A model generated the notes under the pieces. That model was not told the origin of the DNA, searched no databases, and was given only the letters and a program-made list of their open reading frames with translations. DNA of 63,972 bases, the filler included, from Gonapodya sp. JEL0774 (taxonomy: Eukaryota): assembly GCA_027604505.1 (NCBI GenBank). It is 4 parts of 4 records of this genome, joined end to end, with 100 filler letters (N's around TTAATTAATTAA, not from the genome) between each part and the next. Parts side by side here need not be neighbours in the genome. Positions count along the whole stretch, not along the records: positions 35,138 to 52,481 come from JADIIX010000272.1; 3 more parts are not named here. One strand, written 5' to 3'. Position numbers and translations under genes: made by a program. This document shows positions 466 through 56,737 of this stretch, in pieces; positions within the stretch are counted from its first letter, which is position 1, and every line of letters begins with the position of its first letter.

Positions 466-1812
466 ATGGCTACTTCAGATGGCAAGGCAACAACAACTCA
501 CGAGACCCAGGGAACCGAACAGGAAGCAATCTTGGATGCAACCAAAGCTATACTGGACGGTGACAATGCCGATTCCATGTTTATTGTGGACAATGTGGAG
601 GACGATAGCAGAGCGATTTCCAAAGATGCCGCTCCGATTGAGTACACACCATTATCCTTCGCATTGCTCTTTGTTGGGTGAGTCTGCGATGGCATCGTAT
701 GTTGCGTCCCGCTATTCTCGAATCTTTCGTTTTGCTTTGTGTTTCCACAGCCTCCTGTGAGTCTCGGCAAACTGCCATTGTCATCCGGTTTCGTCCCAAT
801 AATCACACTAACCACACTCGTTGCGTCGATAGTCTTGCCGTTTTCCTCGCATCCTTGGATCAGACAATTCTGGCAGTCGCGATTCCCAACATCATCACGG
901 ATTTCCAAACGTTCGTGGGAACTTCATGGATCTTCACTGCATTCATTCTGACCGCGACATGTGAGATTGGCCATCACCAAGTTCCCATCGCCACTTCAGG
1001 CTGATTGTGCCTTTATTTGCAGCCTTCATTCCTGCTTATGGAAAAGCTTGTGACATATTCGGTCGAAAAGCTGTCATCCTCTTCGCGATCGTCGTCTTTG
1101 AGGCCGGATCCGCCATCTGCGGCGCAGCAACAAGCATGAACATGCTCATTGTTGGAAGAGCTGTGGCGGGATTGGGAGGTGGTGGCATCTTCTCGCTCGT
1201 CCAGGTCATCATCAGCGATATAGTTCCGTTGGAACGGAGAGGGACGTATCAGGGACTTGTCGGTGGTGAGTGATAACAAAAGTGCTAGTGAGTTTCTTGT
1301 GCACTTAGGGTCTCACTCAAATGTGCACCCAACAGGTGTGTTCGGGTTGGCATCCGTGGTGGGTCCCCTCATGGGCGGAGCCTTCACGTGAGTTTCTTTA
1401 GCTTGTCAATGGTGCAACGAAGATCACACTCATAGCAGTTTATCTCGATGACAGTGATCACGTGAATTGGCGTTGGTGCTTGTGAGTACTAGTGTCGGAC
1501 GCGATCTCTTCTGATGCCACATAGAGACGCTGACACGGCCTCATATTATCTCAGCTACATCAACCTTCCTCTTGGCGCCTTCACCTTCATTGTGGTCGTC
1601 TTCTTGCTCAAGTTGCCCGTCGGTTCCGGTGATCTGAAGAGTCAAATCCGCCGAATGGACTTCATCGGAACCTTCTTACTCGTTCTCGGAATCGTTCTCG
1701 TTCTCGTCCCTCTGTCGGAAGGGGGTAACGACTACACGTGGGACTCTGGATTTGTGATCGGTTTGCTCATCGCTGGGAGTGAGTCGAATGTCCAGATACT
1801 CAGTAGAGTTAA

Positions 1813-1848
<36 letters not shown>

Positions 1849-3168
1849 GGGGGGCGTTTCGTTACCCCCCCCCCGGTGGTGTTATTTTGGCTTAGGTTTG
1901 CGGGGANNNNNNNNNNTGGCGGTGCCTGTGGTGTGGTCTCGTGGGGGTGGGCCCCTGTGGCCCGCCCCGCCGGCCGCCGGCGGGCGCCGGCGGCGGCCCC
2001 GCCCCCGCCCCCCCCCCCCCCCCAGGTAGGGACCGTACGGCGTTTCGTTTCGCCACTCCAGCTGTTGTTCTTGTGGCTTTCGTTTTCGTGGAAGCCAAAA
2101 TAGCAGTGGAGCCTGTCATTCCTCTTGACATGTGAGTGTCGGAACGCGGTTGTTCTGCGTGGTTAAACTCTGACACGCATTATCCTCTGTCCCTTGTATT
2201 TCCGGAGGTTTAAGAACCGCTACGTTGCAATTGTGTTCTTTTGCGCTTTCATGAACGGCCTCTCCTTCTTCACGCTCTTCTCTTACGTGCCGAGCTTCTT
2301 CCAAGTCGTCAACGGGGACACACCCACGCAAGCCGGTGTCGATTCGTTGGCACTAGTTCTCTCGCTGGTAGTTTCTATAATCGGATCGGGAGTTTTCATA
2401 TCAGCCACCGGAATTTATCATCCCTTGGTCACAATGGCTGGGATACTCGAGACGATCGGAGCAGGCCTAATGTTCACTCTGGCAGAAGATTCATCTATAG
2501 TGCAAAAAGTGGTCTACTTGATGATAACTGGTCTCGGTGAGCTCTGACAGATGGTGTGGGAGCGCTCCGATGCGGATTCATTCGAGTTCCGGGCTCGTAA
2601 AGGCCTTGGTATGGGACTGCAGGCGCTCTTGATCGCGGGTCAGGCTGCCGCAACACAAGATCAACAAGCAGTAAGTTTGATTTTGAATGTGGTCTGTGAT
2701 TGCTTTGCCCACCGATCGCACCATTGCAGCTCGTCACCGCGAATGTGAGCTTCTGGCAACAAACTGGTGGTGTCATCGGAGTCGCAATTGCATCAGCAGT
2801 GAGTTTCACATGTTTGGGGACGAACTGATAAGGAGCATCGGGTCTGACGTGTTTATCTTCACGTCGCGATGGCGCGGCCCTCCTTTTAATAAAAGGTCTT
2901 CTCAAACAAACTCACCAATACCCTGGCAGAACTCGCTCCTCACGCAGTTGTAGCTTACGTCAAGAATAACCCGTCGGCTCTGCGTTCCGCTCCCGCTGAG
3001 TTTGTACCCCCGGATGAGCTCGATGGAGTTATTCGCTCGTATGTCACAGGTTTGACGTACATGTTCGTCCTCACTGTGCCGTATGGGCTGGTGATGTTTT
3101 TCTGTAGCTTCTTTGTTAAACGATTGAGATTGCCCAAGGCAACAGACGTTCCGATTGGAGCTGCCTGA
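466..3168 (+). CDS. MFS drug:H+ antiporter (DHA2, 14-TMS type), tandem copy 1; multi-exon
   Basis: Exon translations LAVFLASLDQTILAVAIP, YGKACDIFGRK (motif A), GRAVAGLGGGG, INLPLG, EPVIPL. GT-AG introns, including a 6-nt microexon at 751-756. ATG 466, TGA 3166-3168. Confidence 0.93.
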
Positions 3169-3986
3169 GATCGCGGCGACTTATCAGGTCATGGAAACTA
3201 GGATTACGCATTTAAATCATAACAAACCCGTCAGCATGGGGTACAACCCAGTTTTGTTAGAAATTGACAGGTTCGAACACTTATCCTATACAAGTCAGTG
3301 TCCAGTTCAGCGGAACCGTCGGACTTGAAGGTGGAACACCAATGAACACTTCGTCAGCCGTCTTCTCTGTTTCCAAAATTCAAGATCATTCACCAACACA
3401 GTTCTCTAGTTGGTAGTCCTGCATTGCCTGAGGGTGGAGAACTGTGATTCGCATTCTTGCTTATTCGAACTTAGTGAGGATCCCAGTCATCCCTAGAGTG
3501 TATGAAGTGGATTTCCCGGTTCATGGAGCTGACAATCAGCTACCAACAACAACCATTGGCACCATGCTACGAAACGGATCATCAAAAACTTGTCTTAAAT
3601 TTTGAAAATCTCTTGAGTGTTTGGTACGAACAGATATGTGGCATGTACTACTCAGACTACGGACTCCCGTTCCCACGGAATCATGGAGAAAACTGACCAA
3701 CACGGAAGAGACCCTGTACTGAATTTCGTTGTGAGCGCTTCAATAGGCGGCGTACTTAATTCCCTGAAGGTGGAGTGTGAAAGCGCCGTGGCCGGCAAAA
3801 ACGGTTTTATCGGATCGGAGAAACAGAGGCACGCAATATTACAAAACATGCGAAGCTTTTTTGGACACCACGCTAGTTCCCTCGCCACGTTCGCATGATT
3901 ACTAATAAACGAGCAACCAAGATTTAAACAGACGTCCTTCCTTGTTTCAAACGTATTCTCGCTTTCTGTCTTTTGATCCTCCAATT

Positions 3987-6481
3987 ATGACTTCTATTGA
4001 CGTCAAATCAACAACTCACGAGACCCTAGTCACCGAGCACGAAGCAGTCTTGGAGATATCTAAAGCTGCATCGGACGGCAACAAAGCCGATTCGAAGCTC
4101 ATGGTGGACGATGTGGAGGACGATGGCAAAGCGATTTCGAGCAAGGTCGCCCCGATCGAGTACACACCGTTATCATTCACATTGCTCTTCGTTGGGTGAG
4201 TTTCGTGCTCGCATCCCATGTTAGATTGGGGTATTCTAAGTTTTTGTTCGTTTCATTTTGTGATTCCTCAGCCTCCTGTGAGTCTTCGCACATCCCCGCC
4301 AAATCATCCAATTTCTGTCCAAGATTCTGATTATCTTATTCCATGCATCTGTAGTCTTGCCGTTTTCCTTGCAGCCCTGGATCAGACCATTCTGTCAGTC
4401 GCAATTCCCAACATCATTACGGATTTCCAAACATTCACGGGAACGTCATGGATCTTTACTGCATTCATTCTCACTGCGACATGTAAGTTCGACCGTCATC
4501 GTGGTTTCCATCTACAATCTCCTGATTACAAAAATACTTGCAGCCTTCATTCCCGCTTATGGAAAGGCATCCGACATTTTCGGTCGCAAAGCCGTCATCC
4601 TTTTCGCGATCGTCGTCTTTGAAGCCGGATCCGCCATCTGCGGTGCGGCAACAAGCATGAACATGCTCATCATTGGACGAGCAGTGGCCGGATTGGGAGG
4701 AGGCGGCATCTTCTCCCTTGTCATGGTCATCATCAGCGATATCGTCCCATTGGAGAAGAGAGGGATGTACCAGGGACTCATCGGTGGTACGTGATCACAA
4801 AGGCACTCTTAGGTTTCTAGTGGGGCTTGAGTCTCACTCGAATGTGCACCCAACAGGTGTTTTTGGGTTGGCTTCGGTAGCCGGTCCCCTCATGGGCGGA
4901 GCATTCACGTGAGTTGGTTTTCCTCAGTATGTATTGCAATCTCAGTTCACTCAGCTGTTTGTCTCGATGACAGTGATCACGTGAACTGGCGTTGGTGCTT
5001 GTGAGTGCTCTAGTCGGTTTGAGATCTGCACTGGTTTTGCACGGAGCTGACACGCATGACACCATCTCAGCTACATCAACCTTCCTCTCGGTGGCTTCAC
5101 CATCATTGCCGTTATCTTCTTGCTCAAGTTGCCCGTCGGTTCCGGTGATATGAAGAGCCAAATCCGCCGACTCGACTTCATCGGAATCTTCTTACTCGTT
5201 CTCGGCATCGTTCTCGTTCTCGTCCCTCTGTCCGAGGGTGGCAACGACTACGCGTGGAACTCTGGGTTTGTGATCGGATTGCTCATTGCCGGTGGTGAGA
5301 ATGTCTCGACTGTTCGTTTTGGAATTCCCATTGAGTGTCTAAACGGTCGTTGTTTCATAAAAATCCAGCTGTTGTTCTTGTGGCGTTTGTTTTCGTAGAA
5401 GCCAAAATAGCAGTGGAGCCAGTTATCCCTCTGGACATGTGAGTGCTATCGGATGGTTTTTGATGTCCGGTCGTCCAGATCTGATACTTGGCGATCTCAC
5501 GTCGGACTGTATTTCGAAGGTTCAAAAACCGCTATATTGCCATCGTGTTCTTCTGCTCCTTCATGAACGGTCTTTCCTTCTTCACTATGTTCTCCTACGT
5601 GCCGAGCTTTTTCCAAGTTGTCAATGGTGACACACCCACACAAGCGGGTGTCGATTCGTTGGCTCTGGTGCTCGCGATGGTCGTTTCCATGATTGGAGCG
5701 GGTATTTTTATCTCCGCCACTGGAATCTACCAGCCCTTGGTCGCGTTGAGCGCCATACTTCAAACGGTTGGAGGGGGTCTCATGTTCACGCTTGTACAAG
5801 ATTCATCGACTGCGCAGAAGGTCGTCTACTTGATGATCACTGGTCTCGGTGAGTTACGACTTGCTATTGGTATTATTGATCGAATACCTATATTGTGTTG
5901 TTTTTCGCGCACCAGGTCTTGGAATGGGAATGCAGGTTCTCTTGATCGCTGGTCAGGCCGCCGCACCGGCAGACCAGCAAGCAGTAAGTTTCATCGTTGC
6001 GTAGAGAACAGATGCGTAATTATGTCGCTCATCGATATCCTATGCGGCAAAACAGCTCGTCACCGCCAATGTGAACTTTTGGCAACAAACCGGCGGTGTC
6101 ATCGGAATCGCGATTGCATCATCGGTGCGTCTCGCCTGCTCTCGCTTTCTGAACAAAAAAAGCATTGTTGCCTGACTAGTTTATGTTCTTGTTTGATCTC
6201 TCATGAAGGTCTTCTCGAACAAGCTCACCAACACCTTGGCAGAACTCGCTCCTCACGCGGTCGTCGCATATGTGAAGAATAACCCCTCAGCTTTGCGTTC
6301 CGCTCCCGCTGAGTTTGTGCCCGCGGATGAGCTCGAAGGTGTTATCCGGTCGTACGTCACGGGGTTGACGTACATGTTTATCCTCACTGTACCCTACGGT
6401 CTGGTGATGTTGCTTGGCAGTTTCTTCGTGAAGAGGTCGAGACTGCCGAAGGGAGCTGAGGTTCCGATGGGAGCAGCGTGA
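3987..6481 (+). CDS. MFS drug:H+ antiporter (DHA2), tandem copy 2; multi-exon
   Basis: Protein closely similar to copy 1 (LAALDQTILSVAIP, YGKASDIFGRK, ...LPKGAEVPMGAA*), with the same intron positions. Confidence 0.93.
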
Positions 6482-6876
6482 TATCGAGCGTGCTCGATGA
6501 ATATTGCATATCTGAGACTATAACGACAGCGACGTTTGCATTGTCATCATTTTAACATCATAACCACGTCATTATAGGGTAGAAGTGAATATTGTTAGAA
6601 GTGAATACTGTGATATCTCAATAGCTCTCAGAGTCTTGTTATCCCGCTGAGAATGGTACTTTAACTTTCACCCCGGGACAAGGCCCCAAAGCATTCGTTT
6701 AAGAACATACTTTAAGAGAGCGCACAGACTGGCGACGATCGTCTCTGGAGAGAACAAAAGCTTGCGAAAATCGATGTTTTATCCAAAAGCGGAAATATGC
6801 CGCTCGCTTGTCCCTGACATGAAGCTCCACCACCCGACCGCACAGATCGTTTGCTTTCAAGAACCCAACCCAGACA

Positions 6877-17512: not shown

Positions 17513-17612
17513 NNNNNNNNNNNNNNNNNNNNNNNNNNNNNNNNNNNNNNNNNNNNTTAATTAATTAANNNNNNNNNNNNNNNNNNNNNNNNNNNNNNNN
17601 NNNNNNNNNNNN
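17513..17612. other. Assembly gap/linker (N44-TTAATTAATTAA-N44)
   Basis: Six-frame stop linker flanked by Ns; identical blocks at 35038 and 52482. Confidence 0.95.
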
Positions 17613-19025
17613 AGCTCGCATGACCCCCTTCACTTCTTAAAATCAAAAGAATGAAGCCCCGCTTCGCTTTCGCTCAGCGAAACTTCGTCTTGGGGACTCA
17701 GCTGAGAGCAGTGCCGCTGATGCTCAGCCCTTGGAGAGTCTCTGGGAAACAGAACTTTAAAGCAAGTCCGAACGTTGTCATCAAGGCCAGAAAATTCATT
17801 TACACTCTTGGGGCAAGCACTCAGCGCCAGGCAATGCTGAAGGGTGCCTGTGCTATCCACACCATCCAATATCTCTCCCCAAACCTGGATTCTCGAATAC
17901 GATGGTGGTCCCTCTCACAGCTTACCTCCAACCTTCCTGCGATGCAGGATGCTGCAAACACTGTTGCTAAACATTAACGTAGCATCTCTGAGTGGGCAGA
18001 TCTTGAAGCAATTGACAAGTTTTTGAAGGTGAGCTCTCATTCAATTGGTGATGACCCTGCAGCACATCTCATTGTGCCAATCTTCAATCATCTCATCAAT
18101 TGATTGGAGCGGCGAGCTCTGAATTCAATTGCCCTGAAGGAGGGACCAACAGAAACCAATCTCCTCCTGCATCGCCTTGCAAGTGGAGGGCTCCCTCCAT
18201 TGTACAAGTACTATTCCAAGACTGATGATACTGATGCTTGGGGAATTGCAACTGGTATGTCTTCTCTCATGCCCTCTGTGTTATCATTATTCATGCTCAT
18301 ATTTCAGACCTCAGTTCTTAATCCTGCTCTCAAACTGTCGTATGCGAAGGAGCATCGTTGGGAAGAGCACATTGTGGACAAACTTGAACAGCAAGTCAAG
18401 AACTCATGGAGAACATTCTACAAGCCTCAATTGGACTTGCATCTCAGTTCTCACCGGGCAGCGATTTCCAGTGGCATTGACGCAGATGGCTCTGAGGAAC
18501 TTCAGACCCACACCTTCAAGCACTTGAAGCGTCAACATTTGGAAGAGAAGGATGAACTTGAGGTGTACCTATCCATGCCAACTGTTGAGATGAGTGCTGA
18601 TGCATTTTGGAGACAGTATGTCTTAAAGCCAAACTCTACAGAGAGGTCAAGCCAGTTCCCAAACCTCTCGTTGATGGCAAAAGACTACCTTTCCATTCCT
18701 GCAACAAGTGCATCTGTTGAGAGACTCTTTTCAGCAGCAAAGCTTGTCATTACTGACAAACGTGGGGGCTTGCTGTGAATGCTCTACTTTGTCTCCAGAG
18801 TTGGTAGTTGGTACAAAGCTGGATTTATGTAAAACTGAATTTTCAGTACAGTGACTCAAAATCAACTCGACTAAAGTTTTGCCATCTTGGCTCGAATCAA
18901 ACTCGGCTTGATGCAGTTTGAAATCAAATCGAACTCGACTCGGGTTCCTCAAACTCGACCTTGGCTCGACTCAAGGACCTCCAAAATCGGCTCAGCTCGA
19001 CTCAACTCGACTCGTAGTTGCTTTA
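17613..19025 (+). mobile_element. Degenerate hAT-superfamily DNA transposon (3' part) with subterminal repeats
   Basis: DSRIRWWS (DxxTRW-like), KYYSKTD, and the hAT C-terminal dimerisation motif FPNLSLMAKDYLSIPATSASVERLFS. Premature TGA stops, CpG depletion, and clustered ACTCG(A) repeats at 18862-19015 ending at a probable TIR near 19025. Confidence 0.88.
18862..19015 (+). repeat. Subterminal ACTCG(A)/GCTCG(A) repeat cluster of the hAT element
   Basis: Many CTCG(A) units and CTCAA/CTTGA variants within about 150 bp. Confidence 0.75.
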
Positions 19026-35037: not shown

Positions 35038-35137
35038 NNNNNNNNNNNNNNNNNNNNNNNNNNNNNNNNNNNNNNNNNNNNTTAATTAATTAANNNNNNN
35101 NNNNNNNNNNNNNNNNNNNNNNNNNNNNNNNNNNNNN
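35038..35137. other. Assembly gap/linker
   Basis: N44-TTAATTAATTAA-N44. Confidence 0.95.
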
Positions 35138-35288
35138 CAGGCCCTACATACGTCTCTGACCTAGATACGCACTAACGTACCCACCCCCAGGAACCCCAGG
35201 ACAACCCCTCCACACGCACCACAGCGCGTCCTGGATCCACACCCCCACAATACACCTGGCCCGTCATCGTGATGGCGCGGGTCACTTG

Positions 35289-36500
35289 TCACCGCACCTC
35301 GATGCCCTGGAGCAACCCCTCGGTCTCGGCGTCCCACACATCTTCGACCTCGGCGTCAAGTGGGGATGGGGAGACCGGGTCGATGGTGGAGTCGCCGGCA
35401 ACGGTATCGTTGTGATGAGAGATGCGGGAGGATGGGTCCGCAGGTGGTTCGTGAGTCGTCATGTTGGTTACCCATCGAGGATGCGGTCCCGGGAGATGAC
35501 CCATCTGATTCGAATGGCCGAGCTTACTCTCGGCCACGTCTCCCATGTTTTCGGCCACCGTGCAGTGCCACCCAGCGCGGGCGAGAATGCGGCGGAGGGA
35601 GGTCCATGTTTGTGGTGTGAAGGCGCACTGGCGGATGGAGACGGTGGGAGTGGGGGAGAGCGAGCGAGGGAGGTTGCGTTGAAGTAGAGGGGACGTGGTG
35701 TAGGTGGTGCTATTATCAGTAACTAGGTCGTGGTTCTGGGAAGTATGGTCAGTAGTAGTGGAGAAAGCAACAGGAGTGGGATCCAAGAGGGAGCGATTGT
35801 GAGCAGGCAGAGAGGGGGACCGGATGCGAGCGAGGATGCGGGCGATGACCAAGGCAAACGCAGTTCCGTCAGTTGGGTGGAGGTGAATGATGTCTACTTT
35901 GGTGCAGTGGGCGTAGAGTCTTGATCTGGTGAACCCTGATGAGCCTGAGATGAGGTGGGCGAGAGATCTCGAGAACAAGAGAGCGCGGGTGAGTGAGTTG
36001 ATGCGGATTGACGAGTAGATGAGTGGAGTGGCGATGAGAAAGAGAAGACGGCATGAGCGTTGGATGGGGAGAAGGGCATCTTTGGACTTGTGGTGCTTGA
36101 TGGGTTGAGGTTTGACGGGGGAAGCAGTGCGGCATAGTGTGCCGGGAGGAGACGGGACAGGCGGCCTGTGCGGCAGAGGAGGGAGATGTGCGGCGCAGGT
36201 GGGAGACAAGAGATCTGTAGCCTGTGCGATCAGCTTGTGGAGGAGGGATGTGGTGTGGGGAGTACTGTGGCTGTGCAGCGTCGACGCCATCACAAACTCC
36301 AGAATGTGGCGGAGCAGCTCCGGAGGGAGAGAGAGCAGGGATGCGGCCACGGACTGTGGCTGTGGTTGAGAGTTGCGTGCGGTGCAGGCGACCAAGGGTG
36401 GGAGAACGGGAACGGGATCACCCGGGTCTGATGCGGTGGGTGTGATGGAGTCCTGTGCGAGTGTATGCGGTACGGCGGGTAGTTGCAGTGCACGGATCAT
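35289..36500 (-). CDS. F-box-like protein, probably continuing 3' into the gap
   Basis: SLLSLPPELLRHILEFV and RSCRLLFLIATPLIYSSIRI (typical fungal F-box region) in a 403-codon ORF. Confidence 0.7.
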   Translation of the reverse strand: MIRALQLPAVPHTLAQDSITPTASDPGDPVPVLPPLVACTARNSQPQPQSVAASLLSLPPELLRHILEFVMASTLHSHSTPHTTSLLHKLIAQATDLLSPTCAAHLPPLPHRPPVPSPPGTLCRTASPVKPQPIKHHKSKDALLPIQRSCRLLFLIATPLIYSSIRINSLTRALLFSRSLAHLISGSSGFTRSRLYAHCTKVDIIHLHPTDGTAFALVIARILARIRSPSLPAHNRSLLDPTPVAFSTTTDHTSQNHDLVTDNSTTYTTSPLLQRNLPRSLSPTPTVSIRQCAFTPQTWTSLRRILARAGWHCTVAENMGDVAESKLGHSNQMGHLPGPHPRWVTNMTTHEPPADPSSRISHHNDTVAGDSTIDPVSPSPLDAEVEDVWDAETEGLLQGIEVR

Positions 36501-36739
36501 CTGTGTCTCTGTCGCTCTCCCGTGGCTGTTGCTGATGATGCTGCGTGTGTGTGCTGTGTGGATGGCGTGATGGATGAGTGGCCCACTGATCGAATGATCA
36601 AAGGTTCTGCTGCATCCCTCGATCGATCAAGGACTCTCCCTCCTTCCCTCTCTCTCCCACACAATGCATTCATCCAGTATTACTCTCTCTTCTCTCTATG
36701 TCCACCTATGAAATCTATTATTCCTGCCACCCCACCCCT

Positions 36740-38584
36740 TCACGCCCTCCCCGTTTCCACCACATAATAATCGTACACCAACCTCGCCGCGTCCGCAATC
36801 CCCCGCTCCCGAACACTCATCGGCGTAGCCTCAGTCGCATCAGCGGCATTCCGCGTGTATATCGCCTGTTTTGTGGTGGGGGAATGAAATTGCGTGGGAT
36901 GGGGTGGGAATGGCGTGCGGTGGGGTAAGTGTTACGGGCGTGAGTCCACGACACGACACAAGGACAAGAATACCCCTTCCCTTCCCCCTGCCTCGACCGA
37001 AACTCACCATAACAATCCACCCCTTCCCCTGCACCTCCACCAGTCCCACCTCCGAATGGTTCCCCCTCACACTGCCCCCCTTGACGCTAGTCTTGACTCC
37101 CTGTCTCATCCGGCCCCTGATCCTGGACTGGGACAGGCACCGAGACATGACGGATAAAAGGTAGGTGCTTGAGCTGGGGGTGAGGGACGAGGAGTGCGGG
37201 GTGGAAGGGGTGAGTAGGGAGGAGAGGGCGCGGAGGAGGAAGGTGTGGTAGGCGGACTGGGGTTGTGGGGGTGTGGGGGAGGGGGGGCGGGGGGGAGGGG
37301 GCGATGGAGATCAGCAGAGTTGGGGGAGCGTGGTGGTATCAGCTGATTTTTCTGGTGGGAGGTTTCGGCCACGAGTGCGCGAACGTGCCCTCCTGCACCC
37401 AACGCCAATCCGCAATTTCCCGAACCGACCGCCAAGCCCCGTCTGCCCCGCTCCCCTTTCCAACCCCCAATCACCATATCCCTCTCCCTAATCCCTCCAC
37501 CCCGTACCCCCCCACCCCACCCACCGGCGTCGTCGAGTCCCTGGGATCCCCCTCCACCGCCGCGGGATTGGGCGGGTAGGTCGACTCCTGATACCGCTGG
37601 GCCACCGCGGGGTGGTCGCGCTCGATGAGGGCGTATTTGGCCAGGAGGGAGTCGGTGGGGTTCTGTGGGGACCGGGGGGTGGGGGGGGCGGGATGATATT
37701 GTGGGGCAAGTGTGTGTGTGCGGTCCGGCGTCAGAACGCAGTCACGCAACGACCTAATCGCAACAACCGAATCGCAACGACCGAATCGCAACTACCCCGT
37801 CGCAAGCGGCTCCTCGTTGTTCAACCCCACTCCCGCACTGACACCCCCCGGCTCCCCACCCTGCCCCGTCTTTCCCGCACACCCCCCAACCCAACCCCGA
37901 CCCCAACTCACCCAGTCCCCAAACACCTCAGGATACGCCTTCCACAAGTTATCCCTCATACTACTGGTGGGGTTCATCCCGCCTCCCAGCCCCACCTCCA
38001 CCTCCAACTCGGCCAGGTACTTGCGCACGGCGACCGGCCCGCCGGCCAGTTTGAGAAGCACGTCGGTCGCGGTGTTGTCGGAGCGGGTCAGTGACATTTC
38101 CAGGAGGTTGGACACGGTGAAGAGGGCGGGGAGGTGGCCGCCCCAGCTGGTGAGGGGGTGGGGGGGGGGGTGTGGAGTGTGATCGACGCGGAGTGATCAG
38201 CTGCATCCGTCTCCCACTCCCACCGCTCCCACCACGCCCGGCCAACCCCCCAACTCACACAATCTCAGGATACTCAATACACAAATCCCCCTCCTCCACG
38301 TCCACCAACAAGTCCAACGTGACCGGTTTCCCCTTTGCCGGTCCGGCCTGGGCGACCTGGCCCCGTTCGACCATCTTGAGCACGGTGGCGGCAAGAACAA
38401 CCTTCACCGTGGACGCCATGGGGAAGCGTTGGTCGGCGTTGTAGGAGATGGGGGGGGGCGGTGGGTGGGATGGGGATGGTGACGGGAGGGGGACGAAGGA
38501 AGCGCAGAGAGCGAGGGTGCCTCTGACCGAGGATTCGATGGCGGAGAGTTCGGGGAGGAGAAACGGCGGGCAGGAATGCGTCAT
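36740..38584 (-). CDS. Class A beta-lactamase-fold (serine beta-lactamase/PBP-like) protein, 5 exons, ~357 aa
   Basis: Exons 38584-38259, 38146-37912, 37662-37525, 37256-37008, 36865-36740 splice in frame. Motifs: QRFPMASTVK (SxxK), MSLTRSDNTATDVLLKLAGGP (SDN), DPRDSTTP, RIRGRM..SVKGGS (KTG position), REREGIADAARLVYDYY-type C-terminal helix (RERGIADAARLVYDYY). Confidence 0.9.
37745..37796 (+). repeat. 14-bp tandem repeat (CGCAACGACCGAAT, ~3.7 copies) in beta-lactamase intron 2
   Basis: Units start at 37745, 37759, 37773 and 37787. Confidence 0.8.
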
Positions 38585-38880
38585 CGCTGGGGCGGGCAAA
38601 GTCGGTTTGTGTGCGGGAGTCGGGTGGGATCGGCGGGGCGGGTTCAGTGCCGAGAGAGAATTTGCGAAGACCAAAGCATCCACTGTTGGGACGTTTGTTC
38701 GACATGTTCTGTACAGAAGCACTAATTTACCGTCGATATTTATGGGAAGAACAAAGTAATGAATACCTAAATAACAACGATACACACATCCAAGAAAGAA
38801 CCACTAATTTTACGTAAGGTCGACCCTGCTCCGTACTCGCTACCACTCCACCGCCCGCCCTATCCCTGTCGAGTTCCTGC

Positions 38881-41800
38881 TCAAACCACCTCCTTGGCCA
38901 ACTTCTCCCCCTCACCTTCCCCGACCTGGTGGATCTCCTCCCCGGTCTCCAAGTCCACGTGCAAGAGATCCGCGATCTCTCCCGGCCCGCCAGGCGCCAT
39001 CTGCTTCTTCCAGTGTTCCTCCTCGTTGGGTGGGAGGATCGGGATGAAGATGGATGGGAAGGCGAGGCCCACAAGGGAAAGGGCCACCATGCATACGCCG
39101 ACGAAGAAGCTGGAGTGGTGGGGATGAGGCGGGAACGGAGGGGAGCACGGTCAAAACTAACGGGTGCGGTTCGCGCCAACGACGTGCATCGGCTGGACAC
39201 GTACCCGAATCCGACAAGCTGCATGGGGAGTCCCTTTGGCTCCTTGACACGCGCAGCAAAGTCGGCGAGAGAGAAGGACGCGATAACTGCGTGGTTAATT
39301 CGGTAGGAGACCCACCGTCCGTCACACGTGCGTCAGCGATCTCCCAGGTGCACTCGAACGCAAAAGCCACAACCCCCACTCAAACGCACTGAGCAAGATT
39401 GGTCCGGTGACAAACTTGACGATGACCGCCCACGCGAGCGGAAGACCCCAGTTTCCCGGCGTCCGCTCGACGACGGCATTGATGTCCTTGCGGAGTTGGT
39501 CGATAGAGTAGAGGTTGAGGTAGTAGGCCTTGGCCAAGGCTGGCGAGAATCCGAGGGTGGTGGTGGGTTCCTTGGCCAACAAGTAGGATCCGAGGAGGCC
39601 GACAATGGCGAGAATGATGCCGGTGACTGTTGATGAATTCGGTGCGAAAACATTGATTAGCTGGGAGGAAAAAAGCAGTCCGATTCTGGTCGAGCTACTT
39701 ACTCAGTCCTGCGATGGAACTTGCTTCGTAAGCCACGATGATCGCCACGGTGGGAGAAAGGATGTAGAACGCGGCGTGGGCGATGAAAGCCCTGGGGCCG
39801 ACCTGGCTGATGACATCTTGGTAGCGATAAAGATAGCTAGCTCCGAAGGAGTATGCGTAGCCGAAGAGTACCATGCCAAGCTCTATGTTCAGGAGCGAGC
39901 GGTGATCAGGTTTCCGTGGTCCCCTCCAAGAGACTCGTCGCATGAACACTGGGCTCACCGTTGGTGTACTTGTCAACGTAGTCGAGCGCGTCTAGACCAA
40001 ATCCAGTGGTGTAGAACAGACCTTCAACGATACATGAGCGGGGCGTGAGAACAGTTGCCACGCACACACGCGGATACCAGATGCACACCCATGAGGCAGC
40101 CAAAAATGCAGAGGAACAGCAAAATCACGTCCTTGCGCAACCCTTTGAAGAGTCGAGCGTCGTAGAGACTCGTGGAGAGCGTCTCGACGAGAGAGATCGC
40201 GGAGTCGATCCCCAACATGAAAACGTTGATAAAGAACAGAACAGACCATACGTTGGCGCCAGGGATTCGAGCCAGAGCCTCTGGATAGGTCAAGAATCCG
40301 AGGACGAACGTGCCGAGCGACGTTTGTGACGGGTCGAGGTTGAGGAATCCTGCGACACCGAACGCTGCGAAAGCGGCGAGCATTTCGAACGCGGAGTTGG
40401 CGAGGGCGACGATGACAGACTGTTGACGGATGTGAACAATCGGCACGGAAAATTGATCGTGTGACTGTGCCAAAGGTTACACTTACATCCTGGACCGCGT
40501 TTTGTGTGACGGGATTGTAACTGCCGTATGCTGAATAAATACCGCAGCAGATACCGATGGAGAAAAAGATTTGGCCGACGGCTGCCGTCCACGGTTTGGT
40601 CGACGAGATGTTGTCGCTTCGCCACGTGGCTGCAGTGGGTGAGATATGGTGGTTGAATGTCGGTTGATCCTTCCCAATACGGAACTCGGAAGCGATCGGT
40701 TCGCACATACCGATGTAAAGCTTGACTCCTTGCCATGCATTCTCCAGAGTGACACCACGAACAATGATCACGATCAACATGAGCAACGGGTAGCCCCTGT
40801 GTGATGCAATATACTCGTGAGAAATCACCTCGCAAGAGATCGAACGACCAGTTCTCACTCACATGGTGATGTACACGACTTTGCCGAGCAGGACGGGACT
40901 GAGAGCAGAACGCGCGGTATGTGCGTTGCAACTTTATTGTACGGATACAAATCTGACCGACGAGGGAATTCACTCACCCTCTGAACGTTGCAAAGTAGGC
41001 AAACACCCACACGAAAATGAGACAACCAAACAGAGCCCAATTAATAGATCCAGTACCTTCCTCGCCCGCAGAGAGATCCTTGTAGCCAACAATCGTTCTA
41101 CGAAAGTGTTGAGACTGTAGTGAACGGTAAAGCAGAGAAAAGTCTCTCTCATAGTGACAATTCACCCGAAAAAATAAGCAGCCACGCTCGGGGAACCACC
41201 ATCGACAGTCCAGGGTAGCGGTGAAGTAAACGATTTGATCTTAAGAAGTCAGGAAATGTTACTATTTCCGGAGACTTGATCAGAAAGAGGTGGCACACTC
41301 ACAAAATACAAAACGCCGTACGCAACGATTGGAACATAATAAGTGGCGACAATGTAGCCAGTAATTTGTGATGCCAACCCCTTCACACTCAGTGAACAGT
41401 AAGTTCGACCTCAATCTTGCAATCTCGTAACCGGATGAATTACCATTCCTCGCAATCGGGGATGCACTCGACCAAATGCAGTGACGGCGCCTGAACGCGA
41501 AATCTGACCAAGAATCATTTCCATGGCAAGAAGTGGAATTCCTGAAAAAGAACGAAAGTAGTACATGTTACGTGATTCGCCTGGCAATCTCCGAACGCAT
41601 TTGCTAACCGCACCAATCAAAAACAGGGCCATGAGATAAGGAACAAACCACTGGAGTCCATAGTTACGCCATGCTTGCGAGGGATCTACAATGATAGTCA
41701 AGACGATCCAGTCCAGTTGCTTCGATTCAGTGATGTGTGGACACTCACATCTAAACATGTTTCCAAGACCTTTCCGAGACAAAGCGAGGAAATCAAGCGA

Positions 41801-52481: not shown

Positions 52482-52581
52482 NNNNNNNNNNNNNNNNNNN
52501 NNNNNNNNNNNNNNNNNNNNNNNNNTTAATTAATTAANNNNNNNNNNNNNNNNNNNNNNNNNNNNNNNNNNNNNNNNNNNN
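52482..52581. other. Assembly gap/linker
   Basis: N44-TTAATTAATTAA-N44. Confidence 0.95.
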
Positions 52582-53007: not shown

Positions 53008-54511
53008 TCAACAACGCCACCACTGTTGAAGTGGTAGATTTCGCGAAGAAAAGGTCAGCGAAAAGCTTGGACAAACAGACGTTCCAATTCTGGTAAGACC
53101 CACCGTCACTCCACTCGTGACCACTCCAACACTCGTAGGAATCCCCAACGCATCCCAGACCGCCGGTGTGGTGTCCATATGACCGTACTCGCAGATCGCG
53201 TCTGGGCACATGTCCTTGATGACGGCGGTGGTGGTACGGCCAGTTGGTGCGTAGGAGATGCAGACTTGCACACCACACCAATCGTTGTTCATTTGGAGGT
53301 AGGTCTGAATGTGAGGGTAGAATTAGGATCAAGACACTAAGAGGCGGAGACGTTGGGCTGAAGACTTACTAAAGCGATGGCACGCTCGCCGTTTGAAATG
53401 CCACCAAGTTGCCAGCAGAAGCCCTGTCCTCCCTGATCGTTCAAATTCATTAGAAAGAGTAGTCAGCATAAAGATCAAATTTGACTCGAAAGCATGTGAC
53501 GTTTTGGTGCCACCGCTGCACAATTCCTGTACTCACGTTCGGATAGTAGTACGTAAGACGACCATTGTATGTCTGGCTAGTGGGTGGCGGTGGAGGCGGG
53601 GGAGCTGCAAAGAGGGATGCATAATCACGTGAAATTACTAACTCCAGCATATCATGTTTGAGACTCACGAGGTGGCGGAGGCGGGGGAGGGGGCGGTGGC
53701 GCTGAAAGGGGGATGATTTTCAGTAATAAACACGGTAAGTCTGGTTTTTTACCGAGACTCACGAGGAGGCGGGGGAGGGGGCGGCGGTGGGGGTGGTGGT
53801 GGCGGTGGTGGTGGGGGGGGTGGTGGCGGTGGTGGTGGGGCTGAAGTCCAAGATTCACTCAAAATTTGAGCCGAAATGAATGAAAAACAGAAGGTACTAA
53901 GACAACATACGTGCTGGCGTTGTTGTAGTGGTCGGTCTCGCGGTGGTGGTGGTCGTGTCGGGGACAACAGTTGTTGTGCTCGTGACGGGTGCGGCCGCAA
54001 TGGTCTCAGCAGCGTCCTGCGCCGCAACTTTGGCAGCCGGAGATGGCGAAGCAGCAGGCGGTGGTGCAGGTGCGACAGTCGCTGCGGCGTCTTGGGCCTT
54101 CGCTTGGGCAGCATCACTCGTGACGCCTGAGTCCACCGACGCTTGATTCCTCCTCGAAAGCGGGATTCCGGCCGCTAAGCCCAAAATAAGAACGAGTCCG
54201 AGCACTCCTACGAGTGCCAGAAGTTTCCGGCGGTGTTTCGGGTGGGTCAGGCTGCTCGCGGTCTCAGACGCTCGGAACCACATCGCTTCCGCCCGCCGGC
54301 TGAATACAGACCCTCGAGACCGCGATGGGACATCATCGACAGAAACTATTCCTCGAGGTGCGAATGAGCCTGTCGGTTCACCTCCCTGGGTCACTGGCGC
54401 TGGTCTTGCGGGTTCACGGGACCCAAACCCCCGCGGAACGTCCTCCGCCGTATCGAGATGGGGCTGCTCTACAATTTGACCCCAAGGTCGTGTGCTGATG
54501 GGCGAACTCAT
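53008..54511 (-). CDS. Type II membrane protein: TM, polyproline stalk, RlpA-like double-psi beta-barrel (expansin/loosenin-like) domain; gene A
   Basis: TM KLLALVGVLGLVLILGLAAGIPL; stalk exons of 78 and 33 nt; YNGRLTYYYPN-GGQGFCW..ERAIAL-WCGVQVCISY..TAVIKDMCP..C.YGHMDTTPAVW-WWRC*. Confidence 0.88.
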
Positions 54512-54852: not shown

Positions 54853-56737
54853 TCAACAGCGCCACCACTGATAGAACGACAAGAGGCGTGGTGAACAAGT
54901 CTGAGTCAATTGGCTCTGTGGTGAGCCGCACAGATGACTTACGGTTACTCCGCTCGTGATTAAACCTGCACTGAGATCGATACCCAGCGCACTCCAAACC
55001 GCTGGTGTGGTGTCCATATGTCCGTAAGAGCAAATCGCGTCGGGGCACATGTCTTTGATGACGGCAGTGGTGGTCTTTCCCGTTGGCGCGTAGGAAATGC
55101 AGACTTGAACGCCGCACCACGAATTGTCCATCATGGTGTATGTCTAGATGCCAAAACCCAAAAGAAGAGATAGAATTGAATGAGGTCGAGGGTTCGAAAT
55201 AGTCCGTGACAATCGCTGGATAATGAATTACGGACCAGAGCGATTGCCCTCTCATCGTTTGATATACCTCCGAGCGTCCAGCAGTAACCTTCTCCACCCT
55301 TGCGTAGAGAAACAGCGTTGTAGTGCATGAGTTTGAGATGATTGTGAGATGAATTTGCGGTCGGCAACTTACATTGGGGTAGTAATACGTGAGACGACCC
55401 TGGTACACTGTTGAGGTACTCGAAGGTGGCGGTGGAGCTGATGACAAGATACATTAGAAGAGAATTCATCGAATGGGGCTGATGGACACTCACGGGGAGG
55501 AGGAGGCGGAGGAGGAGGCGGCGGCGGTGGTGGTGGGGGCGGAGCTGAAAAAATCGTCGAACTCTGTCAGAAGACTTGCAGGTTCATGCTACATCAGTGC
55601 AACCACACATACGGGGTGGCGGGGGAGGTGGTGGTGGAGGTGGGGGCGGTGGTGGGGGCGCTTTTGCGTTTGAAAGGACATAGGATAGTGGTAAGTGGCT
55701 CAGCGGTGGGCAATTATTTCACGGGGAACATACGTGGAGGAGGCGCTGAAAAACAGAGGGACATTAGCTCATTGCTAGATGACAATTTATTAGTATACTC
55801 ACGTGGTGGTGGGGGCGGGGGAGGTGGCGGCGGTGGTGGTGGAGGCGGCGGTGGTGGGGCTTCACGGAGTGGTGCGATCATGAGTTAAAACACCAACGAA
55901 AGCACCAAGCAAACGATACGAGCGATGAAAACGTACGTGGAGGAGGGGGTGGTGGTGGAGGTGGAGGCGGGGGCGGAGGTGGTGGGGGTGGGGTTGCTGA
56001 GAAACATTATAAAAGTATGTTGGAACACCTCTCGTCACGGATGGGTCGGGAAACAGTCAATACTTACGTGTTTCGGTTGTCGTTACAGGCGCAGGAGCCA
56101 CGATTGTCGTCGTAGCAGCTTGAATAACCGCCACGGTGGTTGCCGCCACTGGGGATGAGGTCGTAGCTGTCGTTTGCGAGATGACAGCGTCCTGCGCCGC
56201 GATTCCCGCTGCCTGAGAAGCTACCACAGGTGGTGGAGGTGGAGGTGAAGGTACGGGTTCGGGTGCCGATGCGACGGTCACTGTTGCATCCTGCGCCTTC
56301 ACGTCTGCTCCGGATCCGGTCGTGGAGTCAGACGCCAGGGACGACTGATTCCTTCTCGACAATGGGATTCCAGCGGCTAGTCCAACGATGAGAATCAGTC
56401 CCAAAACTCCGATTACGGCTAATAGCTTTCTCCTGTTCTTTGGTTGAGTCAGGGTACCCGCGGCTTCCAATCCCCGGGACACAAGGTTCCGCCCACTCGC
56501 GAGCGCAGACTGCCGAGATGGGACCGCATCAATCGTAGCATGCCCTCTGGAGGCAGTAGAAGCATCGGTGAAGTCGCTATCACGCGTCCAGGTTTCGGAT
56601 CTCGGCGTTGGTACCCTGCGACTGTTGGAGTCGCGTTCGTCGTAAAATCCGCGTGGGACATCCTGCGCCGTCTCCAAATGCGGATGCTCGTCAAGCTGAT
56701 GAGCGCCCCACGGACGCACGCTTGCCGAAGAACTCAT
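54853..56737 (-). CDS. Paralogous TM-polyproline-DPBB protein; gene B
   Basis: Same architecture as gene A; stalk exons of 60, 57, 12, 48 and 51 nt; DPBB nearly identical to gene A. Confidence 0.88.

What the first reader, a model, noticed from the sequence alone, without database searches (positions are those of the whole stretch)
36740..38584. Spliced class A beta-lactamase-fold gene in a fungal genome, with an altered catalytic set
Seen: five GT-AG exons splice into a ~357-aa ORF with FPMASTVK (38413-38402), SDN (38082-38074), DPRDSTTP and KGG (37082-37074) where KTG is expected. There is no signal peptide, a long insert lies before DPRD, and MNPTSSMRDNL stands where the class A DRxE166 motif normally sits. 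Known: class A enzymes are bacterial, Glu166 is the deacylation base, and PBP-A-type homologues lacking it acylate beta-lactams but hydrolyse them poorly. Most fungal 'beta-lactamases' are class C-like esterases or metallo-folds. Inference: a horizontally acquired gene that has gained introns, now possibly a cytosolic beta-lactam trap/sensor or peptidase with a new function. The introns argue against bacterial contamination.
Basis: partly seen in the sequence, partly recalled or inferred. Interest (0 to 1): 0.9.

Follow-up and report, generated by a model that had tools for sequence, protein, structure and literature searches.

The report
Bacterial Glu166-less lactamase-fold gene in fungi
This water-dwelling fungus has an intact five-exon gene for a protein shaped like a bacterial penicillin-destroying enzyme but missing the residue that does the destroying; it was likely taken long ago from a bacterial group that already lacked that residue, and it likely cuts small D-amino-acid peptides or amides inside the cell rather than antibiotics.

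Summary
The gene is real: five GT-AG exons, 357 aa, class A fold. A database protein of Gonapodya sp. JEL0774 equals its last 302 residues; orthologs exist in G. prolifera and Hyaloraphidium, i.e. both classes of Monoblepharomycota. The fungal rows form one group (99/98) that joins 12 bacterial rows (99/97) inside a large family of long-omega-loop proteins; AU tests did not reject a tie to canonical class A (p 0.34, 0.14). Fungal changes are KGG (Gonapodya only), loss of Arg164 and an invariant IEYPExxWGGH loop. In 28 of 33 loci, secreted bacterial relatives sit directly beside DgcN-like, amidohydrolase, serine-hydrolase or D-amino-acid genes; signal-less relatives mostly sit in catabolic operons. 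Best reading: a cytosolic peptidase/amidase for D-amino-acid peptides or acyl amides; beta-lactam trap or sensor less likely. No activity or expression was tested.

The parts
38259..38584 (-). Exon 1 (aa 1-109): first ATG, no signal peptide, S70-x-x-K73 (STVK 38413-38402), start of the fungal-invariant 104-110 loop (IEYPE, from 38278)
38147..38258 (-). Intron 1, 112 nt, phase 2, GT..AG; G-rich 5' third, C-rich 3' third. A Gonapodya-like environmental protein (P0136) ends at this same site
37912..38146 (-). Exon 2 (aa 109-187): SDN (38082-38074); Ambler 161-170 with Met166 (37959-37957) and Leu170 in place of Glu166/Asn170, Ser164 in place of Arg164
37663..37911 (-). Intron 2, 249 nt, phase 0, inside the omega-loop insert
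37525..37662 (-). Exon 3 (aa 188-233): rest of the 44-residue omega-loop insert and Asp179 (DPRD, 37548-37537)
37257..37524 (-). Intron 3, 268 nt, phase 0
37008..37256 (-). Exon 4 (aa 234-316): Arg220 (about 37124-37122) and K234-G235-G236-S237 (KGG 37082-37074)
36866..37007 (-). Intron 4, 142 nt, phase 0
36740..36865 (-). Exon 5 (aa 317-357 and stop): last strand and C-terminal helix
35138..52481 (.). The contig that carries the gene (17,344 bp, between two N-TTAATTAATTAA-N spacers); eukaryotic neighbours

Best explanation
An intact, spliced fungal gene for a signal-less protein with a predicted class A beta-lactamase fold that lacks Glu166; it was likely acquired once from bacteria before Gonapodya and Hyaloraphidium split, and it likely works in the cytosol as a serine peptidase/amidase on small D-amino-acid peptides or acyl amides, not as an antibiotic-destroying enzyme. 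Shown: gene structure; S70, K73, S130, N132, K234, G236 and R220 kept; Met166/Leu170 where Glu166/Asn170 hold the hydrolytic water; the 44-residue omega insert; these traits shared with the nearest bacteria. Inferred mechanism: K234/R220/S130 bind the substrate's terminal carboxylate, K73 activates S70 to form an acyl-enzyme, and K73 (as in DD-peptidases and PBP-A) would also activate water for release; the insert and the fungal IEYPExxWGGH loop would cap the site and select the substrate. Inferred role: scavenging or clearing D-amino-acid peptides, for example bacterial cell-wall fragments, taken up from the decaying, bacteria-rich material the fungus lives on. Gonapodya's introns 1-3 were likely gained after the transfer.
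For: Gene and orthologs. Fold: pLDDT 92.7 for the ortholog P0001; Foldseek top hit LRA-5, a Val166 enzyme; VIA Z 34.6-29.6 for class A enzymes, LRA-5 32.5, PBP-A 31.0, BlaB 29.6, against about 21 or less for low-mass PBPs. Position 166: all 15 reference A1/A2-type rows have Glu in the column where the fungi have Met or Thr; 0 of 15 sister rows have Glu; 26 of 308 long-loop rows do. Tree: fungi 99/98, fungi plus 12 bacterial rows 99/97 (100/98 and 97/95). Distribution: after six fungal-type rows (342 bits or more) the next hit is bacterial at 199 bits; ESM Atlas neighbours all bacterial. Signal-less bacterial sisters: 6 of 70 parsed loci lack a leader, all Alphaproteobacteria of the sister group (more); 8 of 11 such loci lie among solute importers and catabolic genes, one beside a penicillin amidase. 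Secreted relatives: 28 of 33 loci have an adjacent DUF1611 (8), amidohydrolase-3 (11), PF00144 hydrolase (16, four fused to D-Ala-D-Ala dipeptidase) or D-serine-dehydratase-like gene; DUF1611 genes best match DgcN and one epimerase best matches DgcA, just under cut-off. Family members are fused to amidohydrolase, M81/MlrC, Mur ligase or M29 domains. Precedent: wild-type LRA-5 has turnover below 0.05 per s, gives no resistance and lies among metabolic genes (PMC12777564); PBP-A, also without Glu166, is a DD-carboxy/endopeptidase (PMC11189452).
Against: No activity, substrate or expression was tested. The D-amino-acid operon context comes from secreted relatives outside the sister group; none of the 11 signal-less sister loci showed DgcN/DgcA in the genes scanned, their context points to organic acid or amide catabolism in general, 3 of 11 have no such context, and the 7 Syntrophales-type loci scanned share no neighbour. 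The 33 loci were my pick from 65 and are not independent. AU tests did not reject joining the fungi to canonical class A (p 0.341 with 3 references; p 0.136 with 10), and bootstraps had not fully settled, so the exact donor is not fixed. The fungal proteins are only 30-35% identical to the sisters and have remodelled the 104-110 loop, so the substrate may have changed. Gly235 removes a hydroxyl whose loss in CTX-M-14 sharply raises Km (PMC10139949), which would weaken carboxylate binding for peptides as well.
Confidence: 0.5

Rival explanations
1. Same origin, but the enzyme acts on some other carboxylate-bearing amide, ester, lactam or thioester (a detoxifying or catabolic amidase or acyltransferase), as the acyl-CoA synthetase, enoyl-CoA hydratase and CoA-transferase neighbours of the signal-less sisters suggest.
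For: Signal-less sisters lie beside AMP-binding enzymes, enoyl-CoA hydratases, MmgE/PrpD, CoA-transferase III, DHDPS-like lyases, penicillin amidase or a lactonase-like MBL. Fungal PF00144 proteins such as LovD are acyltransferases (PMC5610705, passage).
Against: The wider family is tied to D-amino-acid and peptide genes; no single partner recurs among the sisters.
Confidence: 0.22
2. A true beta-lactamase with a relocated general base: one of the two fungal-invariant glutamates of the 104-110 loop (window Glu104, Glu107) would replace Glu166 and let the fungus destroy beta-lactams in its habitat.
For: Both glutamates are invariant in the fungal rows and rare or absent in the 15 sister rows; the loop flanks the active site in class A (established knowledge); R220 and the core triads are kept.
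Against: Leu170, no Arg164 and, in Gonapodya, Gly235 all depart from working class A enzymes (PMC10139949); the protein is not exported; LRA-5 is nearly inactive (PMC12777564); distances in the model could not be measured.
Confidence: 0.1
3. One reading: a cytosolic protein that is acylated by beta-lactams and stays acylated, acting as a sink or a signal of nearby antibiotic producers, like Streptomyces BlaB (role recalled).
For: Glu166-less class A folds acylate but barely release beta-lactams (PMC12777564, PMC11189452); BlaB is a close fold match (Z 29.6).
Against: Fungi have no penicillin target to protect (established knowledge); no signalling domain is attached; no AmpR- or BlaI-type regulator was among the 65 adjacent genes scanned in 33 bacterial loci (one MarR adjacent, one convergent LysR two genes away); Gly235 would weaken beta-lactam binding.
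Confidence: 0.1
4. A decaying pseudo-enzyme, bacterial contamination, or an old vertically inherited eukaryotic family.
For: High GC (coding 0.64, third positions 0.81); a second eukaryotic pair exists in protist transcriptomes (P0148, P0343); long branch to Gonapodya.
Against: Four spliceosomal introns, eukaryotic neighbours, 71% identity and intact frame in G. prolifera, 77 invariant columns across fungal rows; GC is regional, rising equally in the neighbouring native transporter copy (third positions 0.76-0.84 against 0.53-0.59 in two of three exon pairs, 0.73 against 0.66 in the third); joining fungi and the protist row is rejected (p-AU 0.003).
Confidence: 0.05

Closest known systems
LRA-5 (soil metagenome, PDB 8EO5; PMC12777564, read: abstract, introduction, first results sections with kinetics, passages on structure, conclusions)
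   Same: Class A fold (top Foldseek hit, Z 32.5), SxxK/SDN/K234 kept, hydrophobic residue at 166, Arg220, metabolic gene neighbours, negligible beta-lactamase activity expected.
   Different: LRA-5 is bacterial, about 290 aa, without the 44-residue insert, with Tyr69 and KTG; this protein has Ala69, the insert, KGG, introns and no signal peptide; 23-30% identity in the structural alignments. LRA-5 itself could not be placed in my tree.
PBP-A of Thermosynechococcus elongatus (PDB 2J7V; PMC11189452, read: abstract and introduction)
   Same: Class A-like fold without the catalytic omega-loop glutamate (Z 31.0); model for K73-based peptidase chemistry.
   Different: 18% identity; cyanobacterial and acting on muropeptides; no evidence that the fungal protein belongs to that lineage.
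Canonical class A beta-lactamases, subclasses A1 (TEM, SHV, CTX-M, KPC) and A2 (PER, VEB)
   Same: Fold, three motifs, PF13354; NCBIfam bla_class_A is the best model.
   Different: Score 85.5 (P0002) and 106.3 (P0001) against cut-off 200; no Glu166, Asn170 or Arg164; omega span 63 against 19-21 residues; no export signal; 19-28% identity.
BlaB of Streptomyces cacaoi (PDB 2WUQ)
   Same: Class A-like fold (Z 29.6); recalled, from no call, as an intracellular protein linked to beta-lactamase induction.
   Different: 24% identity; no regulator partner seen here.
Fungal PF00144 and PF00753 lactamases (PMC5610705, passages) and the G. prolifera xenolog KXS12969.1 (PMC11291939, passages and supplement rows)
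   Same: Lactamase-fold genes in fungi; G. prolifera is known to hold intron-rich xenologs, one a cytosolic 'Beta-lactamase' of bacterial origin.
   Different: Those are PF00144 or metallo folds. PF13354 is not mentioned in PMC5610705, and the ortholog KXS10262 is not in the two supplementary files of PMC11291939.

Membership tests
Class A serine beta-lactamase (active enzyme) | Class A fold | tested here: met
   Ortholog model pLDDT 92.7; Z 34.6, rmsd 1.9 over 269 residues to a class A enzyme
Class A serine beta-lactamase (active enzyme) | S70-x-x-K73 and S130-D-N132 | tested here: met
Class A serine beta-lactamase (active enzyme) | K234-T/S-G236 | tested here: not met
   KGG in both Gonapodya species; KTG or KSG in the Hyaloraphidium-type rows
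Class A serine beta-lactamase (active enzyme) | Glu166 (with Asn170) deacylation base | tested here: not met
   Met166/Leu170 by alignment with 15 Glu166 references and 15 sisters; helix starts at that residue in the model; no coordinate-level check
Class A serine beta-lactamase (active enzyme) | NCBIfam bla_class_A cut-off | tested here: not met
   85.5 and 106.3 bits against 200; note that Glu166-less bacterial relatives do pass it (212-241 bits)
Class A serine beta-lactamase (active enzyme) | Export signal | tested here: not met
   48-63 residues before S70 in six fungal rows, no hydrophobic leader
Class A serine beta-lactamase (active enzyme) | Fast beta-lactam turnover | not testable with these tools
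   needs purified protein
PF13354 Beta-lactamase2 (versus PF00144) | Pfam gathering score | tested here: met
   PF13354 67.5 (P0002) and 81.4 (P0001) against 22; PF00144 22.7 against 27 for P0001
Long-omega-loop, Glu166-less bacterial class A-like group (undescribed as far as my searches go) | Omega span of 30 or more residues between 161 and 179, non-Glu 166, Ala69, Arg220 | tested here: met
   span 63; family median 55; Ala69 in 290 of 308
Long-omega-loop, Glu166-less bacterial class A-like group (undescribed as far as my searches go) | Placement inside the group on a tree without the loop columns | tested here: inconclusive
   99/97 and 97/95 for fungi plus sisters, but AU does not reject a tie to canonical A1
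PBP-A-type DD-peptidase | No Glu166 on a class A fold | tested here: met
PBP-A-type DD-peptidase | Descent from the cyanobacterial PBP-A lineage | not tested
   no PBP-A sequence was in my trees; structural identity 18%
PBP-A-type DD-peptidase | DD-carboxy/endopeptidase activity on muropeptides | not testable with these tools
   needs assay
Horizontally acquired fungal gene | Eukaryotic contig and spliceosomal introns | tested here: met
Horizontally acquired fungal gene | Narrow fungal range with bacterial nearest relatives | tested here: met
   named fungal hits only in Monoblepharomycota in four searches; word-index and candidate limits apply, so absence elsewhere is not proven
Horizontally acquired fungal gene | Spliced transcripts | not testable with these tools
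   no run could be laid on the gene

The most novel reading that the evidence does not exclude
A large, widespread bacterial family that databases label 'class A beta-lactamase' (one even 'KPC') is in fact a family of Glu166-less peptidases with a lid-like omega insert that feed D-amino-acid salvage (DgcN/DgcA, D-aminoacylase-like and D-Ala-D-Ala dipeptidase partners). It entered eukaryotes at least twice, once in the ancestor of a whole fungal phylum and once in marine protists, giving them a cytosolic way to use or clear bacterial D-peptides; the fungal copy built a new glutamate-bearing substrate loop. This would name the missing native function of LRA-5-like proteins and a living link between DD-peptidases and class A beta-lactamases.
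Probability: 0.3. Interest if true: 0.8.

Novelty: new variant of a known kind. Interest (0 to 1): 0.52.

Why it matters
Class A enzymes are treated as bacterial resistance proteins. This is an intact, conserved copy in an early-diverging fungal phylum that my searches did not find discussed in print. It also exposes a big bacterial group that passes the class A annotation cut-off without the catalytic glutamate, which would inflate environmental resistome counts, and its gene neighbourhoods give a concrete, cheap-to-test substrate class for Glu166-less class A folds, an open point in the LRA-5 work.

Tried and rejected
RNA evidence: no RNA holder listed, so no reads were laid. No whole genome is held for the window, so copy number in this fungus and synteny with G. 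prolifera were not checked. A scan of JGI metagenomes with the fungal-led alignment gave 80 loci, all intron-free bacterial-type matches, none fungal. Acetobacteraceae-level search: 7 of 401 genomes match at 1e-60, so the sister group is patchy. A fold of exon 2 alone was useless (pLDDT 51.7); the full window protein was not folded, only its ortholog. The second VIA look did not run. The first large alignment misplaced position 166 for P0003/P0004 and for the A2 references; the refined alignments fixed this. Rows dropped before the counts: 12 without SxxK or too short (L058, P0072, P0074, P0133, P0136, P0141, P0152, P0167, P0202, P0205, P0244, P0266) and L019 (no frame found); the 330 counted rows include near-duplicates. 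Ten of 80 loci were not parsed in the signal-peptide test. My first ORF calls in GC-rich loci picked shadow frames and were redone. GC richness as a donor signature: rejected. One shared eukaryotic origin with the protist copy: rejected. Literature: no paper held Gonapodya + horizontal gene transfer + lactamase; none held three of DUF1611, DgcN, dipeptide epimerase, D-glutamate, beta-lactamase; 'omega loop insertion' occurred in none of the 11 listed; none of the 20 listed held 'class A beta-lactamase'; some searches were seen as listings. Subscription papers are not covered. PMC5324141, PMC9146315, PMC12363236 and PMC10845958 were seen as passages only; the last two give the DgcN-DgcA D-glutamate pathway but do not name DUF1611. 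Earlier scan notes: nothing.

Full report
1. Observation. Each splice pair is the best of all nearby GT/AG pairs against the G. prolifera ortholog, and an independent annotation, P0002 of Gonapodya sp. JEL0774, equals the last 302 residues. The window is a join of separate contigs; the gene's contig runs 35138-52481, 17,344 bp, the same length as listed for P0002. It also carries two NSS transporter genes, a phosphatase, casein kinase II beta and an F-box-like gene. Contamination is excluded. Expression is untested.

2. Relatives. Orthologs: G. prolifera P0001 (71% over 350 aligned residues), Hyaloraphidium curvatum P0003 (39%), and four environmental fragments (P0004, P0133, P0277, P0136). 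The two named genera lie in the two different classes Monoblepharidomycetes and Hyaloraphidiomycetes. No other named fungus appeared in four searches; after the fungal rows the next hit falls from 342 to 199 bits and is bacterial. These searches have word-index and candidate limits. On trees built without the omega-loop columns the fungal rows are one group (100/98, 99/98) and join Acetobacteraceae, Acuticoccus and Syntrophales rows (97/95, 99/97). Against this, AU tests did not reject pulling the canonical enzymes next to the fungi (p 0.341; p 0.136), so bacterial origin and a single entry are well supported but the exact donor is not. Two protist transcript proteins (P0148, P0343) belong elsewhere in the family; joining P0148 to the fungi is rejected (p 0.003): a second, separate entry into eukaryotes.

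3. Introns. P0277 (46.8-kb contig) and P0004 read without a break across the sites of Gonapodya introns 1-3, P0133 (15.1-kb contig) across sites 2-3, and all three end or lose similarity just after the NDxG motif, where Gonapodya has no intron. P0136 stops exactly at Gonapodya intron 1. The simplest reading, an inference, is separate intron gain in the two lineages after an intron-less gene arrived.

4. Active site. The ortholog folds with high confidence (pLDDT 92.7) into a class A fold: LRA-5 is the top Foldseek hit; Z 34.6-29.6 for class A enzymes, LRA-5, PBP-A and BlaB, about 21 or less for low-mass PBPs. S70, K73, S130, N132, D179, R220, K234 and G236 are kept. Position 166 is Met in Gonapodya and Thr in the Hyaloraphidium-type rows, in the column where all 15 reference enzymes have Glu; the register is anchored by Pro162 and Arg167-Asp168, shared with the nearest bacteria. 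Position 170 is Leu. The span 161-179 is 63 residues against 19.

5. What is inherited and what is new. Among 308 non-eukaryote-labelled rows with a long loop (median 55), 26 have Glu166; Thr 146, Ile 83, Val 28, Met 10. None of 15 sister rows has Glu166 and four have Met. Six of 70 parsed genome loci lack a signal peptide, all alphaproteobacterial sisters, four with an in-frame stop 51-59 codons before S70; one search adds more. So the 'altered catalytic set', the insert and the cytosolic form predate the transfer. Fungal changes: Arg164 lost in all six rows that cover it; 26 of 77 fungal-invariant columns are rare in the sisters, chief among them the IEYPExxWGGH loop beside the active site; KGG in Gonapodya only (Gly235 in 3 of 308 bacterial rows). 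In CTX-M-14, losing the Thr235 hydroxyl raises Km to the millimolar range (PMC10139949, passages and tables), a further step away from beta-lactam binding.

6. Function. Wild-type LRA-5, also without Glu166, has turnover below 0.05 per s, gives no resistance when cloned and lies among metabolic genes (PMC12777564). PBP-A is a DD-peptidase on muropeptides (PMC11189452). Gene context points the same way. In 28 of 33 loci of secreted relatives the next gene is DUF1611 (8), amidohydrolase-3 (11), a PF00144 hydrolase (16; four fused to D-Ala-D-Ala dipeptidase) or a D-serine-dehydratase-like gene, often with TonB receptors, peptide or amino-acid permeases and racemases close by; 65 of 66 adjacent genes were scanned and none was an AmpR- or BlaI-type regulator. 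The three DUF1611 proteins tested match DgcN (389-468 bits, cut-off 480) and one epimerase matches DgcA (366, cut-off 400); DgcN-DgcA turns D-Glu into L-Glu (PMC10845958, PMC12363236, passages). Fusions with amidohydrolase, M81/MlrC, Mur ligase and M29 domains agree. The signal-less sisters are less specific: 8 of 11 loci lie among ABC or family-5 importers and catabolic genes, one beside penicillin amidase, without DgcN. I therefore commit to a cytosolic serine peptidase/amidase on small D-amino-acid peptides or related amides (0.5), then another amidase or acyltransferase role (0.22), a beta-lactamase with a relocated base (0.1), a trap or sensor (0.1), decay or artefact (0.05). The chemistry (K73 as base for both half-reactions) follows from established DD-peptidase knowledge and is not shown here.

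7. Known or new. The G. prolifera protein is annotated as beta-lactamase-like in databases, and intron-rich bacterial xenologs, including a PF00144 'Beta-lactamase', are published for that species (PMC11291939); this ortholog is not in that paper's two supplements. A review of fungal lactamases does not mention PF13354 (PMC5610705). Interest 0.52.

Noticed in passing
window 17513-17612, 35038-35137, 52482-52581: The window is four separate contigs joined by N44-TTAATTAATTAA-N44 spacers; genes across these points are not neighbours.
   Followed up: yes
window 38881-about 42100 and 42813-about 45950 (-): Tandem pair of sodium:neurotransmitter symporter (SNF/NSS) genes, about 70% identical in DNA; the first ends 296 bp upstream of the lactamase-fold gene on the same strand. 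A link through amino-acid uptake is possible but untested.
   Followed up: partly
window about 35100-40500: GC-rich stretch at the contig end (0.55-0.66 against 0.46-0.51): third-position GC is higher in the near transporter copy than in its paralog, a regional effect such as biased gene conversion.
   Followed up: partly
window introns 38258-38147, 37911-37663, 37524-37257, 37007-36866: Introns have G-rich 5' thirds and C-rich 3' thirds that can pair end to end; folding z-scores -0.9, -2.4, -3.6, -0.9 against mononucleotide shuffles.
   Followed up: partly
P0148 and P0343: Second eukaryotic acquisition of the family in protist transcriptome collections, with Cys166; P0343 has a long N-terminal extension that could be a targeting peptide.
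   Followed up: partly
L016:7773-8909, L029:3729-4859, L030:5915-7108, L035, L045, L049, L055, L066: A conserved membrane protein of about 380 aa with a GGGYATGRE motif sits in the DgcN-linked operons and has no Pfam hit at 1e-3 (5 tested) or NCBIfam hit (1 tested); probably an amino-acid or peptide transporter (YkvI-like, name recalled).
   Followed up: partly
L013:4986-6790, L120:4845-6722, L177:6561-8380: Signal-less sisters are followed at once by a second, different PF13354 gene, after a family-5 solute-binding protein: a possible two-enzyme or heterodimeric unit.
   Followed up: no
P0121-P0125, P0183, P0209, P0212, P0260, P0075: Family members occur as tandem double domains and as fusions with M81/MlrC, Mur ligase, amidohydrolase or M29 peptidase domains.
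   Followed up: no
P0022 / L011: A Glu166-less Syntrophaceae protein is named 'carbapenem-hydrolyzing beta-lactamase KPC' in NCBI, a likely misannotation; five of seven bacterial relatives with a single domain tested pass NCBIfam bla_class_A.
   Followed up: partly
window 35292-36500 (-): Long open frame with a weak F-box match (E 0.11) starting 239 bp after the gene's stop.
   Followed up: no
window about 490-3200 and 4000-6500 (+); 53100-53850 and 54940-56000: Other tandem duplicates on neighbouring contigs: an MFS transporter pair and a repeated unknown gene; also a hAT transposase fragment at 18104-18775.
   Followed up: no
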